A DNA stretch of 39,224 bases from an uncultured Methanosarcinales archaeon (GTDB lineage Archaea; Nanobdellota; Nanobdellia; Woesearchaeales; CAZYIM01), in assembly GCA_964647565.1 (NCBI GenBank), contig CAZYIM010000025.1, positions 2,654-41,877 of the forward strand. Direction: 5' to 3'. Positions 12,001-18,000 of the stretch are shown here, one piece after another. Made by a program: the position numbers. The stretch's first letter is position 1. Each line of letters opens with the position of its first letter.

Positions 12001-15000
12001 GTAGAAGCCACTGTTATACCAACAAGATTCTTTAAGGCAAGAGTCACGATATTAGTCCAATGATTTTTCATCTTAGGCACATTGATGATCACATCTGAAT
12101 CCAGGACATACTCGCTTATTGCATACCAACCCATGGCTTGACCATTAGGATTGATCCCATATGAATCTGCTGTCTTGTAATACTGATGGTTGTATAATGT
12201 CACATCATAATAGCCCATATCATAATCAGTGTAACTTGAACCTGCAAAAGCACTGTTCTGGTCAAGGTTGATCCATCGCCATTTCTTATTAGTGCCCCTA
12301 TCGTTAAGATTCACAATCCTGATTTCGATATTGGCATGTTTTGTATCTAAAGCTTCGACCATCGCAACATATTTGGTATCCAGAAGATATTTCTCACCAT
12401 TGGTAAATCCAGGGCTACCATCGCCAACCCATATCTTAGTTGCACCTGCTGTAACCGCCATGTCTATCAAAGGCCTGACAACTGACGGATGACTATATGC
12501 CGCACCACTGGCAGCAACCATGTTAGGTTTTATAAGCACTGTATCGCCTTGGCTAATCAAGTCTGATAAAGGGTCTGATTGGGTTCCCAGTGCTGTCCCA
12601 ACAACCACATCCCATATAAAATAATACACAGGATTGTCTCTTGCATCATAAGGAGGAGTTGTGCCGTAGCTGACAGAAGCATCATAGTTAAAACTCACAA
12701 TCGGATCTTCTGGTGAGAGTGGATTAAGGCATATATATGCAGGAATAGTCCTGCTGCCCAAAACTCTCAACTGTTCTTGTTGGTAGTCTGAATAAAGCCT
12801 AAAAGAGCATATTAATAATATAGGTATAAGCAATATCAAGAAAAAAGTCAATGGTTTTCCTATCATGAAGCGCCAGATGTGTTTCCTTTTTTTGTAAATG
12901 ACAGCTGGAAGCAGTCCAAGAAAAGAGCTCATCTGGAATACCGCCGCCTTCTGGCAGGGATATGTTATTCTGGTGGGTCTTGGTATGACCCTAAACAAGA
13001 ACCAAGCCAGGCTCAAAATTGTAAATACAAGATAGCTATGCTTGAACTTTCCAAGAAAACCTAGTTTATTATGTTTCTTGCACATTTTAGTTTTAAGGCA
13101 AGAGGTTTGAAAAAAGCGCTTTAAAACCTAACACCTCTTTTGATACTTTCTTCATATTACTTATATAAAAAGTTATGGATTGTCATCACTTCCAATAGAA
13201 AGCTTTTAAAACAAGGACAACTATAGGTGACTTATGTCATATGATTATAAACAGGTCATCCTTGTTCGACAGGATCTGAAACTGCAGAAAGGCAAGATGT
13301 CAGCGCAGGTAGCCCATGCCAGTGTTGAAGCTGTGATGCGCAGTGATAAGGACAAGGTCAAAGAGTGGCGCAAGGAGGGCATGAAGAAGGTAGTGCTAAA
13401 GGTTGCAGATCTTAAGGAACTTCATAAGTTTAACCAGATGGCAAAAGATGCAGGGTTGACAACTGCCACCATCACAGACGCAGGCCATACAGCAGTGGCT
13501 CCTGGAACTATGACTTCCTGTGCAATTGGACCTGATAAAGAAGATGATATTGATGCGGTCACTGGCGACCTGCAGATGATTTAGGCGTATTCAGTTTTTC
13601 TTCCTTTATGAGACTCTTATCCTTAGGTTCTTCATAAAGACGTGTTACCTCTGTACAGCTATTTGGATCTGTCCACCATAGAATACCATCGCTATATAGC
13701 TTGGTGGTGTAAAGACCCATACCGCCAAGCTGTTTGTGCTCTCCGTTCTTAGGTTTAAGAAGTTTCAAGACATTGCTCTTATCTAAGAATAATTGCAAGG
13801 GCATCACAACTTGATGTTTAACATTCCTATCTACAGTCACAACTTTTAAGTTCTGTGTCTTTTCAGTCTCATAGAATATAATGTGGAACTCCAAAGGCTC
13901 ATAGATACTTCCGTCATTGCCATGGTAAAAACTATTACGGTTATCTTCTCCTGTTGTGTACTCGATCCTGCCCACTTTTTCCTCAGTAAAACCTTTTTTT
14001 CTTGCGTCGCCACATATGTAATTCATTATCTGGTTAAAGTTAGTTTGAGCAGCTCCGTGAGTAAAATCCTTAAATTCTGCCTTAATGGCGTCCAGGTCTT
14101 TAATATAACCTCTTTGGGACATCTCAGTATATATAGATTCTTCATCTTCAGGAGTAAGTATTCTCTTCTCTCTTTTCAGTTCATGGATCTTATCAGCCAT
14201 AATAGAATAGAATTCATCAGACCATGGATGAATAGGGAATTTAAGCAGTTTCCTCTTTATTTTTTTAAAATATTTAGGGGTCGTCGATTTCTGTGAATCT
14301 TCATAGCTCCTCAATCCGCCCCGACCAATTAAGGATTTGAAGAATTTCTTGAACTTAAATTTCCTGATCTCTTTTTTAGCATGTTTTAGCTTGTCTGAAA
14401 GAATAGGCACATAATGTTCGTAATCAGGGAATTTGAAATACTTATATTTTGTGATATCTCCCTGCCCATCTTCACCCCATTGGTTTTCAGGAAGGTGTTT
14501 GATCTCTAGAAAAGCGACCTTTTCATCCTCATCACGCATAAGTACTGTAAACGGTGCGCCAGTCAATTCCTGTATCTCTTTAAGTCTCCCTTCCAAAGTC
14601 TCTTGTTCAGTATTGACTTCTTGCATTTTAACTACTTTAAAGTGATTACTATTTATTAAGTTTTCGGTTTTTATGCCACATAAGCCCGCTAAAAAAAGAT
14701 CCTTCAATCATATAAACACATTATAAACTTCTTTTTATTTAAAATTTATTAAAAAGATTTATAAAAACCATTTAACCTATTTTTTCCCATGGAACCAGAA
14801 AACAAATTAATCGAAGAAAGACTCAGAAAACTCAAGGAAATAAGAGAGATGGGAGTCAACCCGTATCCTTATTCATATAAACAAACACATCATGCTAAAG
14901 AAATCCTAGACAAGTTCGACAAAAAACTCAAAAAAGAGCAGACCACCAAGACCAAGGTCTCTGTTGCAGGCAGGATCATAACCCTTAGACGGATGGGAAG

Positions 15001-18000
15001 AGCTACTTTCATGCATCTCCAGGATGTGACAGGCAAGATCCAGCTATACTTAAGGGAAGATGATATCGGCAAAAAGAATTACAAATTCTTGAAAAAACTA
15101 GATATTGGCGATCATATCGGGGCAAAAGGCACTGTATTCAAGACAAAGACGGGCGAGACGTCTGTATATGTAAAGAAATGCAGTTTGTTATCCAAAACAT
15201 TAAGACCTTTGCCAGAGAAGTTCCACGGTCTTGCAGACCAGGAACTGAAGTATAGGATGAGGTATTTGGACCTTATTATAAACCAGGATGTCAAAGACAG
15301 GTTTATCATGCGGACCAAGGTCATCCAATATGTAAGGGAATTCCTAGACAAGCTCAATTTTATTGAAGTTGAAACCCCTGTCTTGCAGGTCATCTATGGA
15401 GGCACCAATGCAAAGCCTTTCAAGACTCACATCAATGCCTATAACATGCCTATGTACCTCAGGGTAGCACCAGAACTTTATCTGAAAAGACTGGTGGTTG
15501 GCGGCTTTGAAAGAGTGTATGAGATAGCAAGAAATTTTAGGAATGAGGGTGTTGACCAGACTCATAATCCTGAGTTCACAATGATCGAATGGTATGAAGC
15601 CTATGCCGACTACGATGTGATGATGGACCGAACAGAGGATATGTATAAGTTCATAGCCAAGAAACTCTTTGGCAAGGCAGAGATCGTAGTAGGCAAGAAA
15701 AAGATCAACCTGGCCAAGAAATGGCCGCGGATGCCCCTGGTTAAAGCCATCAAGAAATATGTTCATATCGATGTCATGAAAATGAGTGAGAAAGAACTTG
15801 CCCAATTCTGTGAAAAGAATGGTGTTGAAGTAAGAGATGGAACCAGCAAGGGCCAACTGATATTTGGAATATTTGACAAATTAGTATGTGATCATCTGAT
15901 CGATCCCATCTGGATAATAGACTATCCAAAAGAGGTCTCACCTCTTTCAAAGGTGCATAGGAAGGACGATTCCTTTGTAGAAAGATTCGAATGCTACATA
16001 GGCGGAAAAGAGATCGGTGATGGATGGTCAGAACTGATTGACCCGATAGGGCAAAGGCAAAGGTTTGAGCATGAGCAGGCAGAGATGCGGGCAGGCCAAG
16101 AGGATGCCCATCCAATGGATGAAGATTTCATCACCTGCCTCGAATATGGAATGCCTCCACTTGGAGGGATCGGCATAGGTATTGATCGATTAGTCATGCT
16201 TTTTACCAACCACTGGTCTATAAGGGATATCATGTTCTTCCCCATCATGAAACCTGAAGGCGGAGTGCAGACAAAAAATGATGCCAAACCAAAAGAATGT
16301 CTTTTCCTACTGGATGAAACTGTCAAGAAAAAATTTCCTGGCCTGAAAATAGGTGTTGCAGTAATCAAGGATGTCACAATAAAAAAAGAAGATAAAGAGC
16401 TTGAAAAAGAGAAAAAAAAGATAGTCAGCGAGATACAAAAGAAAGCAAAGGAACTGCTGAAAAGCTCAAAAAGCCTTAAGGCATATGAGGATCTATATAG
16501 AAAAACCGGTGTTGACTTCACCAAGAGGAAACCTTCTCCAACAGCTCTGCTAAAAAGGCTATCAGAAGGTAAGGATCTCTACAAGATCAACACCTTGGTT
16601 GATGTTGTCAATCTCTGTGTCATGAAGAACCAGATGTCAATGGGCGTCTTTAACTTCGACAAATTTAAACTGCCTGTTGTGCTGAGATTTGCCAAGAAAG
16701 GCGAGAAATTCCAGCCACTAGGAGAAAAGGAGTTCAAGGATCTTGATGAAGGTGAGATCATCTATGCAGACCAGGATATGGTTACTACCAGGGATTTAAA
16801 TTACCGGGATTGTGATAAATCCAAGATCACTGAAAAAGTCAAGAACATCATGTTCTTTGTAGACGGCACAGAAGCCAATACAGAAGAAGAGCTAAAAGAG
16901 ATCTTTGAAGATGCGATTGAACAGATAACAAGGTTTGTGGGCGGCACAGTTGAAAAGGTCATGTTCTCTTTTAAGAAAGCAGAAACTCCTAAGAAAAAAT
17001 CAGTCTCAAAGATGAAAACACATCCGATCTTCTGGGCTGATTTCTATGTTGGAGAGTTCGATGCCAAGGTTGTTAAGATTGAAGGCGACGAAGTAGTGCT
17101 TGACAAGACCTGTTTCTACGGAGAATCCGGCGGCCAGGCAGGAGACATCGGAACCCTGAACAAGATCAAAGTCATCAATACTCTCAACAATAAAAAAGAG
17201 ATAATCCATGTTTTAGCAAAGAAGCCAAGCTTCAAGACTGGTGACTCAGTGCATGGCAAGATAGACTGGGAAAAAAGGATCAACACCATGAGACTGCATT
17301 CAGCCAGCCATATAACAGAACATTTCCTGTTCAAGGAATTCGGAGAGCTGAAACGAATCGGCTCTGCTGTCAACGATGTCAAAGACAGGAGTGATTTTCT
17401 AAGTGATGAGAGTCTTGGCGGCGACAAGCTGAAAAAAGTTGAGGATGCCAGCAACAAATTCATAGCAGGCAAAAAGGATATCAAGATAATTGTTGATGAT
17501 GCAGGCTACAGGCTCTGGAAGTGTGAAGATATCGAAGACGGTTGTGGCGGAACTCACGTCAATAACACCAAAGAGATAGGCAAGATCAAGTTAAAGCGAG
17601 TCAACCTCGGCAAAGGCAAAGAACGGATTGAGACATATCTGTGTTGAAATGGACAACTGCAATCAATGCGGTGTCTGCTGCAAACTCTTTGTTATAAATC
17701 TTAATGAAGAAGAATATCAATCAGGCAGATTTCAGACTGAATTTGAAGAGTTCGGACTTGTTGAATTCCTAGAAGCTGAATTGACTGGCGCAAACATATT
17801 AAAAAGAAGAAAAGATGGCAGTTGCATCTATCTAAAGGATACTAAATGTTCGATTCACCAAACAAGACCTCAAGTGTGCAGGGGATTCTTATGCAACTCA
17901 AAAAAAGAACAATTCCAAGACATGATAAGACAAATAAAGCTTGTGAAAAAGAAAAATGCGCAGAATAGGTAGTTACAAACATAAGGATTTTTTGTTCGGA

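What a model noticed while it worked through the whole genome (the two positions that open the first line are those of the whole stretch)
14789..17647. Lysyl-tRNA synthetase fused to two editing-type domains (B3/4 and AlaX)
g01855 (952 aa) is a class II LysRS (residues 1-490, about 50% identical to bacterial LysS) carrying a PheRS-beta-type B3/4 domain (568-698) and an AlaX-type editing domain (736-948) with both zinc motifs (HSASH, CGGTH). It is the only LysRS called in the genome. The triple fusion was found in one other protein of a 5.8-billion-protein collection, but pairwise fusions of LysRS (class II and, independently, class I) with B3/4 or AlaX recur in about a dozen DPANN/CPR proteins, pointing to an undescribed LysRS-linked proofreading activity.
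Evidence so far: Pfam: tRNA-synt_2 294 bits, B3_4 79, tRNA-synt_2c C-terminal part 52, tRNA_SAD 33. Search with residues 500-952: P0133 (971 aa, 35% id, 98% cover) has all five families; LysRS-II+B3_4 in P0128, P0129, P0131, P0132, P0135; LysRS-I+B3_4 in P0134, P0137-P0139; LysRS+AlaX in P0130, P0136, P0140, P0141; ArgRS+B3_4 in P0143. Separate AlaX-M (g00193), AlaRS (g02118) and full-length PheRS beta (g00981) exist.
(Added by a program. Inside this text positions count along the whole contig: contig position 2,654 is position 1 of the stretch shown here. "Call 12" and the like, gene names such as g00115 and contig names such as C1 are that model's own, and its searches are not shown. The text may have been shortened before it was handed on; [...] marks where a part breaks off. 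The agent that wrote the report below was given it as the finding of a first reader that could run no searches.)

Follow-up and report, generated by a model that had tools for sequence, protein, structure and literature searches.

The report
Lysyl-tRNA synthetase with two proofreading modules
The only lysyl-tRNA synthetase found in this archaeal genome carries two extra modules of kinds that strip wrong amino acids off tRNA, so an enzyme long held to lack such proofreading may have gained it.

Summary
Window 14789-17647 (+) is one 952-aa ORF: a complete bacterial-type class II LysRS (residues 5-490), a B3/4 module (about 506-727) and an AlaX module (745-952) with both zinc motifs. It is the only LysRS found in the 86.9%-complete genome.

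- **B3/4 type.** The module is not PheRS-beta-type. It is a full-length member of the free-standing CtdA (canavanyl-tRNA-Arg deacylase) family: profile E 1.6e-21, TM 0.78-0.83.
- **Family size.** These fusions are not "a dozen". A profile search gave 506 representative clusters at E <= 1e-30. One well-supported clade holds the C-terminal modules of both class I and class II LysRS, intermingled. They share a pocket (N, G, F/Y, N-Y-R-D) unlike the CtdA pocket. ArgRS-fused modules keep the CtdA pocket.
- **AlaX module.** It is an ordinary PH0108-type AlaX-M. Such modules were captured repeatedly by LysRS, and also by PheRS-beta.
- **Other triple fusion.** In P0008 the B3/4 pocket residues are replaced.

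Best reading (about 0.55): post-transfer proofreading in cis of mischarged tRNA-Lys at two hydrolytic sites. No biochemistry exists, and no paper I searched describes it.

The parts
14789..17647 (+). Whole ORF, 952 aa plus stop: LysRS-II, CtdA-like B3/4 module and AlaX-M module
   Evidence: A second assembly encodes the same protein with 951/952 identical residues.
14957..15190 (+). OB-fold anticodon-binding domain of LysRS (residues 57-134)
   Evidence: Pfam PF01336, 60.7 bits
15236..16249 (+). Class II catalytic core of LysRS (residues 150-487). The whole LysRS match covers residues 5-490.
   Evidence: PF00152 295.3 bits; NF001756 685 bits against cut-off 468; 518 bits end to end with solved bacterial LysRS 3a74
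16304..16969 (+). CtdA-family B3/4 module (residues about 506-727), including the N-terminal helical part that PheRS-beta B3/4 lacks
   Evidence: Profile vs PDB: CtdA 9f7e E 1.6e-21 over profile positions 21-227. AlphaFold model pLDDT 94.4. Foldseek: CtdA TM 0.78/0.83.
16610..16612 (+). N608, equivalent of CtdA N105 (essential in CtdA). The preceding V607 replaces CtdA Y104.
   Evidence: HMM mapping; residue roles from passages of PMC12449066 and PMC12268091
16799..16810 (+). N671-Y672-R673-D674, the pocket motif of the LysRS-linked clade (CtdA has N-W-R-Q)
   Evidence: among 38 LysRS C-terminal modules, D in 34, R in 35, Y in 29
17021..17644 (+). AlaX-M-type editing module (residues 745-952): N-terminal beta-barrel plus editing core
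   Evidence: PDB sequence hit 2e1b E 1.6e-33; model pLDDT 95.9; Foldseek 9iuw TM 0.88/0.90 and 2e1b 0.89/0.89
17297..17311 (+). HSASH (837-841), first zinc-binding motif (HxxxH)
   Evidence: H102 and H106 of alignment A5 are invariant or nearly invariant.
17543..17557 (+). CGGTH (919-923), second zinc-binding motif (CxxxH)
   Evidence: C184 and H188 of A5 are nearly invariant.

Best explanation
The gene encodes the cell's lysyl-tRNA synthetase with two hydrolytic proofreading modules fused behind it.

- **Core (shown by homology).** Residues 5-490 make Lys-tRNA-Lys like any bacterial-type class II LysRS.
[quoted passage not shown] It has no post-transfer editing of its own.
- **Proposed action (inferred).** The acceptor end of a mischarged tRNA-Lys, still held by the synthetase through its anticodon, swings into one of the two appended sites and the ester bond is cut.
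- **B3/4 site (inferred).** The CtdA-like module belongs to a clade tied to LysRS of both classes. Its pocket keeps the Asn, Gly and Arg of CtdA but replaces the Glu and Gln that face the side chain with an aromatic residue and an Asp. I propose that it removes a cationic near-cognate or non-protein amino acid, such as Arg or a lysine analogue.
- **AlaX site (inferred).** The AlaX-M module, with its zinc site intact, is proposed to remove small amino acids (Ser, Ala, Gly, perhaps Thr).
- **Not determined.** Catalysis, the substrates, and action in cis have not been tested.
For: **The ORF is real**
- It is continuous.
- A second assembly encodes it with 951/952 identical residues.
- Contigs from 4 runs of 2 studies are 100% identical, with no indel, joint or loose end. 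One 197-nt contig (16157-16353) bridges the LysRS/B3/4 junction.

**It is the working LysRS**
- NF001756 scores 685 bits against a cut-off of 468.
- No other LysRS was found in the own genome.

**The B3/4 module is a CtdA-family deacylase fold**
- Sequence profile E 1.6e-21 over 207 positions.
- TM 0.78-0.83 with a model of pLDDT 94.4.

**The module is linked to lysine rather than to one protein scaffold**
- In a tree of 157 modules, one clade (SH-aLRT 97) holds 18 of 18 class I and 18 of 20 class II C-terminal LysRS modules, intermingled.
- Starred branches force at least 7-8 switches between the two unrelated enzyme classes.

**The pocket is conserved and distinct**
- Among 38 LysRS C-terminal modules: N105 equivalent in 36, G116 equivalent in 32 (Ala in 5), R172 equivalent in 35, D in place of Q173 in 34, F or Y in place of E118 in 36.
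- Among 24 ArgRS-fused modules the CtdA pocket is kept: E118 in 23, W171 in 22, Q or E at 173 in 23.
- So the pocket follows the synthetase to which the module is fused.

**The AlaX module looks intact**
- Both zinc motifs are present.
- TM 0.88-0.90 to AlaX-M.
- AlaX modules joined LysRS of both classes in at least 4 separate placements in the tree.

**Literature**
- Ser/Thr-tRNAs made by LysRS are substrates of the trans-editing factors ProXp-ST1/2: passage of PMC7373986.
Against: - **No assay.** No biochemistry exists for any member of the LysRS-linked clade.
- **Catalytic residues of CtdA are changed.** V607 stands where CtdA has Y104, named as relevant for catalysis in the abstract of PMC12268091; 29 of 38 LysRS-fused modules keep Tyr there. 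The equivalent of CtdA E118, also called relevant for catalysis, is Phe throughout the clade. The CtdA mechanism therefore cannot simply be transferred.
- **The AlaX module is not LysRS-specific.** Equally similar modules are free-standing (131 proteins at E <= 1e-25) or fused to PheRS-beta (P0273-P0276). It may act on other tRNAs.
- **Other alanine-type editing genes exist.** The genome already has AlaRS, an AlaX-M and a further AlaX-like gene.
- **Patchy distribution.** No triple fusion was found in 40 same-order genomes, and only 1 of the 40 has a LysRS-B3/4 fusion.
- **Degenerate relative.** The one other triple fusion (P0008) has lost the pocket residues of its B3/4 module.
- **tRNA-Lys unseen.** No tRNA-Lys gene was recovered from the assembly; only 10 tRNAs were found.
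Confidence: 0.55

Rival explanations
1. Tethered general trans-editing factors. One or both modules act on tRNAs other than tRNA-Lys, for example AlaX on Ser- or Gly-tRNA-Ala. They would be fused to LysRS only for co-expression, stability or gene economy in a small-genome organism, like a minimal multi-synthetase complex.
For: - The AlaX module nests among ordinary free-standing AlaX proteins at 40-56% identity.
- The same kind of module is fused to PheRS-beta (P0273-P0276, P0310).
- Fusions arise repeatedly and patchily.
- LysRS also carries other add-ons in relatives: tRNA_bind, HD and DUF2000.
Against: - The B3/4 clade is tied to LysRS of two unrelated classes and has its own conserved pocket, while ArgRS-fused modules have the CtdA pocket. 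That is hard to explain if the fusion partner were irrelevant.
- The genome already has three other alanine-type editing genes: AlaRS, an AlaX-M and an AlaX-like gene.
- Most AlaX captures retrieved here are by LysRS. The sample was drawn with this protein's AlaX as query, so it is biased.
Confidence: 0.22
2. The appended modules are catalytically dead. They would serve as extra tRNA-binding or acceptor-end-holding domains that raise the affinity of LysRS for tRNA-Lys.
For: - V607 replaces the Tyr that CtdA needs, and Phe replaces CtdA E118.
- P0008 keeps a B3/4 module whose pocket residues are all changed.
- tRNA_bind domains occur in the same position in relatives (P0127, L045).
Against: - The pocket residues N, G, N-Y-R-D and D are conserved in 31-36 of 38 LysRS-fused modules.
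- Both zinc motifs of AlaX are intact and nearly invariant in its family.
- Binding alone would not require either of these.
Confidence: 0.12
3. Artefact: a chimeric assembly or a mis-called gene joins three neighbouring genes.
For: - The source is a metagenome-assembled genome covered at low depth, about 3-6 in the laid runs.
- The assembly is large for its order and has duplicated AspRS and ThrRS genes.
Against: - The frame is continuous with short linkers.
- A second assembly gives 951/952 identity.
- The reads show no indel, joint or loose end.
- The same domain order occurs in dozens of distant proteins: P0008 is collinear at 42% identity, and there are many LysRS-B3/4 and LysRS-AlaX proteins.
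Confidence: 0.02

Closest known systems
CtdA, the free-standing canavanyl-tRNA(Arg) deacylase (PDB 9f7e, 9mkl)
   Same: - Same full-length fold, including the N-terminal helical part (TM 0.78-0.83).
- End-to-end profile match, E 1.6e-21.
- Equivalents of N105, G116, R172 and an acid at E191 are kept.
   Different: - Fused behind a LysRS instead of free-standing.
- Pocket residues differ: Y104 to V, E118 to F, C166 to T, W171 to Y, Q173 to D.
- It sits in a separate, LysRS-linked clade.
- The substrate is unlikely to be canavanyl-tRNA-Arg.
- It may relate to the uncharacterised 'CtdA-2' clade of PMC12449066. This was not tested.
B3/4 editing domain of PheRS beta subunit
   Same: Same core fold and Pfam family PF03483 (80.2 bits). 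Both hydrolyse, or are presumed to hydrolyse, aminoacyl-tRNA.
   Different: - Only the core matches: about 95 profile positions at E 4e-10 for bacterial PheRS-beta and E 2e-3 for archaeal; TM at most 0.59.
- It is not part of a PheRS.
- Of the PheRS editing residues only the Asn is shared, according to passages of PMC12449066.
AlaX-M trans-editing protein (P. horikoshii PH0108, 2e1b; P. furiosus, 9iuw)
   Same: - Same two-part fold (TM 0.88-0.90).
- About 35% identity to these solved proteins.
- Both zinc motifs are present.
   Different: - Fused to a LysRS.
- Only 33% identical to the genome's own AlaX-M.
- Below the NCBIfam AlaXM cut-off: 153 bits against 300.
Cis-editing class II synthetases (AlaRS, ThrRS) and trans-editors of mischarged tRNA-Lys (ProXp-ST1/2, MurM)
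   Same: AlaRS and ThrRS follow the same logic: a class II synthetase with an AlaX-type hydrolytic domain in the same chain. ProXp-ST1/2 and MurM clear Ser-, Thr- or Ala-tRNA-Lys made by LysRS (passages).
   Different: No LysRS with a post-transfer editing domain is described in the papers I searched. Here there are two different hydrolase folds in one chain.

Membership tests
Class II lysyl-tRNA synthetase (LysS) | OB anticodon-binding domain plus class II catalytic core, scoring above the curated family cut-offs | tested here: met
   NF001756 685 bits (cut-off 468) and TIGR00499 618.9 bits (cut-off 427.6); end-to-end match to solved LysRS 3a74, 518 bits
Class II lysyl-tRNA synthetase (LysS) | Serves as the cell's LysRS, with no other LysRS gene | tested here: met
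   PF01921 gave 0 matches. The other 4 of 5 PF00152 matches are AspRS (two), AsnRS and an AsnA-like protein. Caveat: the genome is 86.9% complete.
CtdA family (free-standing B3/4 aminoacyl-tRNA deacylases) | Full-length CtdA fold of about 230 aa, including the N-terminal helical region | tested here: met
   Profile positions 21-227 match chain residues 8-213 of 9f7e, E 1.6e-21; TM 0.78/0.83
CtdA family (free-standing B3/4 aminoacyl-tRNA deacylases) | Functionally tested residues N105 and G116 (S. enterica numbering) | tested here: met
   N608 and G619; residue roles from passages of PMC12449066
CtdA family (free-standing B3/4 aminoacyl-tRNA deacylases) | Canavanine-pocket and catalysis residues Y104, E118, C166, W171, Q173 | tested here: not met
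   V607, F621, T667, Y672 and D674. ArgRS-fused relatives do keep these residues.
CtdA family (free-standing B3/4 aminoacyl-tRNA deacylases) | Hydrolysis of canavanyl-tRNA-Arg | not testable with these tools
   Needs deacylation assays.
PheRS-beta B3/4 editing domain | Embedded in a PheRS beta chain (B1, B5, core domains) with the PheRS editing residues | tested here: not met
   The chain holds no PheRS domains. Only the core matches. The genome's real PheRS-beta is on contig C10.
AlaX-M (PH0108-type alanyl-tRNA editing protein) | Beta-barrel plus editing core, with HxxxH and CxxxH zinc motifs | tested here: met
   HSASH 837-841 and CGGTH 919-923; TM 0.88-0.90
AlaX-M (PH0108-type alanyl-tRNA editing protein) | Score above the NCBIfam equivalog cut-off (NF040865) | tested here: not met
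   153.3 bits against a cut-off of 300. The genome's own AlaX-M on C2 scores 309.9.
AlaX-M (PH0108-type alanyl-tRNA editing protein) | Deacylation of Ser- or Gly-tRNA-Ala | not testable with these tools
   Needs assays. The tRNA specificity of the fused module is unknown.

The most novel reading that the evidence does not exclude
LysRS, the textbook synthetase without post-transfer editing, has acquired a dedicated cis-editing domain in many CPR bacteria and DPANN archaea. The domain is a lysine-linked sister clade of the canavanine deacylase CtdA, and it has moved repeatedly between the two unrelated LysRS classes. ArgRS has acquired the CtdA-type module itself. In this protein a second hydrolase (AlaX) is added, giving one chain with three active sites that sieve tRNA-Lys twice after charging: once for cationic look-alikes and once for small amino acids.
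Probability: 0.35. Interest if true: 0.85.

Novelty: new variant of a known kind. Interest (0 to 1): 0.75.

Why it matters
- **It overturns a standing description.** LysRS and ArgRS are described as lacking editing domains. Passages of PMC4173786 say post-transfer editing in LysRS is 'entirely absent', and passages of PMC10018355 say no editing domain in ArgRS has been described.
- **It is a whole family, not one protein.** A large family of natural fusions would mean proofreading of lysine and arginine codons exists in cis in many small-genome microbes. These organisms take their amino acids from hosts and cannot control their pools.
- **It gives a functional hypothesis for uncharacterised proteins.** The fusions label a large, uncharacterised branch of the CtdA family with a likely tRNA partner (tRNA-Lys) and a diagnostic pocket (F/Y ... 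N-Y-R-D). That turns 'unknown specificity' into a testable question.
- **It is a natural experiment in module transfer.** The same editing module has been passed between two unrelated enzymes that share only their substrates.

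Tried and rejected
- **tRNA-Lys of the organism.** ARAGORN gave 8 tRNAs, or 18 with introns allowed. Rfam RF00005 gave 10. None is tRNA-Lys, so acceptor-stem features could not be examined.
- **Window scans.** No tRNA and no Rfam family was found in the window. The sigma-70 promoter and terminator scan was uninformative: 11 promoter-like sites against 14.7 expected.
- **Alignments for folding.** Whole-protein alignment A2 and combined alignment A3 misaligned the B3/4 part, as checked, and were not used. 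An alignment of hand-trimmed modules was not run. The two domains were therefore folded separately from alignments of the window segment with whole free-standing proteins (A4, A5). The whole 952-aa chain was not folded, so the relative placement of the three active sites is unknown.
- **RNA runs.** No RNA holder was listed.
- **B3/4-AlaX junction in reads.** The listed contig pieces leave 16970-17028 uncovered in run X1. Run X3 has depth 3.39 in that bin, but the piece is not among those listed. Bridging of this junction by reads is therefore not shown.
- **Is P0008 an independent triple fusion?** Its B3/4 sits on a long branch (1.77) and its AlaX pairs with a free-standing protein (SH-aLRT 97). 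The chain is nevertheless collinear with this protein at 42% identity. The question is unresolved.
- **Binding between domains.** No complex prediction was run.
- **Literature.** Searches, plus term look-ups in three CtdA papers, found no description of LysRS or ArgRS fused to B3/4 or AlaX. Supplementary Table S2 of PMC12449066 has one row described as 'Lysyl-tRNA synthetase, class 2' (a Bacillota species) and no hit for the three DPANN name stems I searched (Aenigm-, Woesearch-, Nanoarch-). I did not see that protein's sequence. The library lacks most subscription journals.

Full report
**1. Observation**

The window holds one uninterrupted ORF of 952 codons at 14789-17647 (+).
- **Pfam.** It places an OB anticodon-binding domain (57-134) and a class II D/K/N catalytic core (150-487, 295 bits). 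These are followed by a B3_4 domain (568-698, 80 bits), the C-terminal part of tRNA-synt_2c (736-828, 52 bits) and tRNA_SAD (911-948, 35 bits).
- **NCBIfam.** Residues 5-490 are called lysine-tRNA ligase at 685 bits against a cut-off of 468.
- **Closest solved LysRS.** The best PDB match is a bacterial LysRS (3a74), aligned end to end at 518 bits.
- **Zinc motifs.** HSASH lies at 837-841 and CGGTH at 919-923.

**2. Genome setting**

- **Organism type.** The genome has archaeal-type AlaRS and PheRS-beta, and PTH2 and TrmB genes lie in the window.
- **Assembly.** It is 2.68 Mb in 86 contigs, 86.9% complete with 1.85% contamination.
- **LysRS count.** Class I LysRS was not found (0 matches). Of 5 class II D/K/N matches, the other 4 are two AspRS, one AsnRS and one AsnA-like protein. 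This is therefore the only LysRS found.
- **Other editing genes.** A separate AlaX-M (C2), AlaRS (C31), an AlaX-like gene (C5), two ThrRS genes and PheRS-beta (C10) exist.

**3. Is the fusion real?**

- A separately assembled 13.7-kb contig encodes the same protein with one substitution, I747S.
- Contigs of four marine runs from two studies match at 100%. They show no indels, joints or loose ends. One piece (16157-16353) spans the LysRS/B3/4 junction. Some of these runs may be the source of the assembly, and pairs of them look like one data set filed twice.
- The stronger argument is evolutionary. The same domain order recurs in many distant proteins. One of them, P0008, is collinear over the whole length at 42% identity.

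**4. What the B3/4 module is**

- **Single-sequence search.** The best full-length PDB relative was CtdA, the free-standing canavanyl-tRNA-Arg deacylase. It was not PheRS-beta.
- **Profile search.** A profile of ten synthetase-fused modules (A1) matches CtdA 9f7e over profile positions 21-227 (E 1.6e-21) and 9mkl (E 1.2e-19). Bacterial PheRS-beta matches only about 95 core positions (E 4e-10), and archaeal PheRS-beta only at E 2e-3.
- **Structure.** An AlphaFold model (pLDDT 94.4) superposes on CtdA at TM 0.78/0.83, against at most 0.59 for PheRS-beta.

**5. The family**

The A1 profile was scored against 1.84 billion representative proteins. It found 7749 at E <= 1e-3, 2617 at E <= 1e-10 and 506 at E <= 1e-30.

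I scanned the 67 longest of the best 150 with Pfam; the 83 shorter ones (137-264 aa) were not scanned.

| Architecture | Count of 67 |
|---|---|
| Class II LysRS, module C-terminal | 13 (2 are fragments) |
| Class I LysRS, module C-terminal | 14 (3 are fragments) |
| LysRS, module N-terminal | 3 |
| ArgRS, module N-terminal | 22 (one with two copies) |
| TyrRS | 1 |
| Module plus tRNA_bind | 1 |
| Module plus DUF2000 | 1 |
| B3_4 as the only strong hit | 12 |

- Of the last 12, 7 show weak hits to the class I-type anticodon-binding domain and look like truncated class I LysRS fusions.
- Named genomes show the fusion in CPR bacteria: Shapirobacteria and Roizmanbacteria with class II LysRS, and Gracilibacteria with class I. 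It also occurs in an Aenigmatarchaeota MAG.

**6. Tree and pocket**

- **Tree.** The tree covers 157 modules (IQ-TREE quick search, LG+G4, SH-aLRT support). One clade with support 97 contains 18 of 18 class I and 18 of 20 class II C-terminal LysRS modules. It also holds 11 short proteins, 7 probable fragments, and the tRNA_bind and DUF2000 fusions.
- **Mixing of the two classes.** Inside that clade the classes are mixed. Starred branches force at least 7 changes of label for class II and 8 for class I.
- **The rest of the tree.** All 24 ArgRS-fused rows lie in the other half, together with the three N-terminal LysRS fusions, the TyrRS fusion and one C-terminal class II LysRS module (P0217).
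- **Residue mapping.** I mapped the CtdA residues named in PMC12449066 (passages) and in the abstract of PMC12268091 through the profile alignment.

| CtdA residue | This protein | 38 LysRS C-terminal modules | 24 ArgRS-fused modules |
|---|---|---|---|
| Y104 | V607 | Y in 29 | Y in 24 |
| N105 | N608 | N in 36 | N in 23 |
| G116 | G619 | G in 32, A in 5 | G in 24 |
| E118 | F621 | F in 29, Y in 7 | E in 23 |
| C166 | T667 | T 11, N 11, C 10, A 4 | C 13, T 9 |
| W171 | Y672 | Y in 29, F in 5 | W in 22 |
| R172 | R673 | R in 35 | R in 24 |
| Q173 | D674 | D in 34 | Q 16, E 7 |
| E191 | D692 | D 31, E 5 | D 15, E 9 |

- **Reading.** The pocket tracks the synthetase partner. ArgRS carries a CtdA-type pocket, and LysRS carries a different one with an Asp at its base.
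- **Caveat.** The window protein departs from its own clade at one position, V607.

**7. The AlaX module**

- **Fold.** It matches P. horikoshii AlaX-M (2e1b, E 1.6e-33). The model has pLDDT 95.9 and TM 0.88-0.90 to AlaX-M structures.
- **Fused relatives.** Relatives of similar length class, at 43-55% identity, are fused to class I LysRS (P0005; P0272, where the module is N-terminal), to class II LysRS (P0008, P0011, P0277, P0016) and to PheRS-beta (P0273-P0276).
- **Free-standing relatives.** Among shorter proteins, 131 score E <= 1e-25. Most are free-standing AlaX of 210-235 aa at 40-56% identity, and many are named as DPANN.
- **Tree.** In a tree of 127 modules the fused ones are scattered among free-standing ones. 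The placements are the window protein with P0005; P0015/P0016; P0008; P0272; P0011/P0277; and the PheRS-beta group.
- **Own AlaX-M.** The genome's own AlaX-M is only 33% identical.
- **Reading.** AlaX capture is recurrent and favours LysRS in this sample, but it is not exclusive to LysRS. The sample was drawn with this protein as query.

**8. Distribution among relatives**

- In 40 genomes of the same order (0.6-2.1 Mb) no triple fusion was found with this query.
- One genome (G020) has a 710-aa class II LysRS-B3/4 protein.
- Three genomes have free-standing B3/4 relatives. In G001 that gene overlaps the start of the ArgRS gene by 4 nt, which is the split form of the ArgRS fusion.

**9. Mechanism**

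- **Known background.** Class II LysRS edits homocysteine, homoserine and ornithine before transfer, by cyclisation (PMC7373986, passages).
[quoted passage not shown] Pneumococcal LysRS makes Ala-, Thr- and Ser-tRNA-Lys, which MurM clears in trans (PMC4173786, passages). ProXp-ST1/2 clear Ser/Thr-tRNAs made by LysRS among others.
- **Fit to the modules.** The two appended modules match the two classes of error. An AlaX-type zinc hydrolase suits small or hydroxyl amino acids. A CtdA-type pocket rebuilt around an Asp and aromatic residues suits a cationic side chain that is not lysine.
- **Proposal.** I therefore propose double post-transfer editing of tRNA-Lys in cis.
- **What is shown.** The folds, the conserved pockets and zinc motifs, the linkage of the B3/4 clade to both LysRS classes, and the partner-specific pockets.
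- **What is inferred.** Catalysis, the substrates, action in cis, and sparing of Lys-tRNA-Lys.

**10. Novelty**

- Five full-text searches and term look-ups in the three CtdA papers gave no description of LysRS or ArgRS carrying B3/4 or AlaX domains.
- The 2023 CtdA paper states that no editing domain in ArgRS was described (passage).
- Table S2 of PMC12449066 has no hit for the three DPANN name stems I searched and one row labelled as a class 2 lysyl-tRNA synthetase.
- The domains and the logic of cis-editing are known. The partner (LysRS), the lysine-linked clade with its own pocket, and two hydrolase folds on one synthetase are new variants.

Noticed in passing
Proteins P0122, P0152, P0153, P0164 and others; locus L037:2-2187 (-): ArgRS with an N-terminal CtdA-type module occurs in 22 of the 67 long representatives scanned. 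These modules keep the canavanine-type pocket (E118, W171, Q or E at 173). In relative G001 the split form occurs: a 234-aa B3/4 gene overlaps the ArgRS start by 4 nt. The 2023 CtdA paper says no ArgRS editing domain was described.
   Followed up: partly
P0010, P0127, P0146, L046 (HD); P0136, P0011, P0173 (DUF2000); P0127, P0169, L045, L044 (tRNA_bind): LysRS-B3/4 fusions often carry a further C-terminal domain: an HD phosphohydrolase, DUF2000 or a tRNA_bind domain. In P0011, DUF2000 takes the place of B3/4 between LysRS and AlaX. From memory, not checked here: HD-family YqeK proteins hydrolyse Ap4A, a LysRS by-product, and DUF2000 is said to resemble the PTH2 fold.
   Followed up: no
L044:2997-3011 (Aenigmatarchaeota MAG): The closest named LysRS-B3/4 gene has an in-frame TAG where relatives have Lys (...DQE*VITRDLNYRD...). 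The same frame continues through the rest of the B3/4 module and a tRNA_bind domain. This could be a sequencing error, a pseudogene or read-through.
   Followed up: partly
P0273-P0276, P0310: Archaeal PheRS beta subunits of about 800 aa carry a C-terminal AlaX-M module. One is named Aenigmarchaeota.
   Followed up: no
P0238: A 632-aa TyrRS has an N-terminal CtdA-family module.
   Followed up: no
Own genome G000 (contigs C58, C5, C48, C79): The assembly is 2.68 Mb, while 40 same-order genomes are 0.6-2.1 Mb. It has two bacterial-type AspRS (one without the insertion domain) and two ThrRS genes. Only 10 tRNAs were found, several with introns. This suggests either real paralogues or a mixed bin.
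   Followed up: partly
window 132-10161 (-): Five tandem ORFs of 635-703 aa lie here. Four of them carry Golvesin_C, GHL15-like and, in two, dockerin domains. They are followed by a 971-aa DUF362 protein (10170-13085).
   Followed up: no
window 13234-13584 (+) and 17628-17972 (+): A PTH2 peptidyl-tRNA hydrolase gene lies 1.2 kb upstream on the same strand. A CxxCxxCC zinc/iron-domain ORF overlaps the last 20 nt of the LysRS gene.
   Followed up: no
window 32432-34261 (-): Two adjacent HIT-domain genes. From memory: HIT/Hint proteins act on aminoacyl-adenylates and dinucleoside polyphosphates.
   Followed up: no
window 27872-31855 (+): A 1327-aa ORF with no Pfam match at E <= 1e-5.
   Followed up: no
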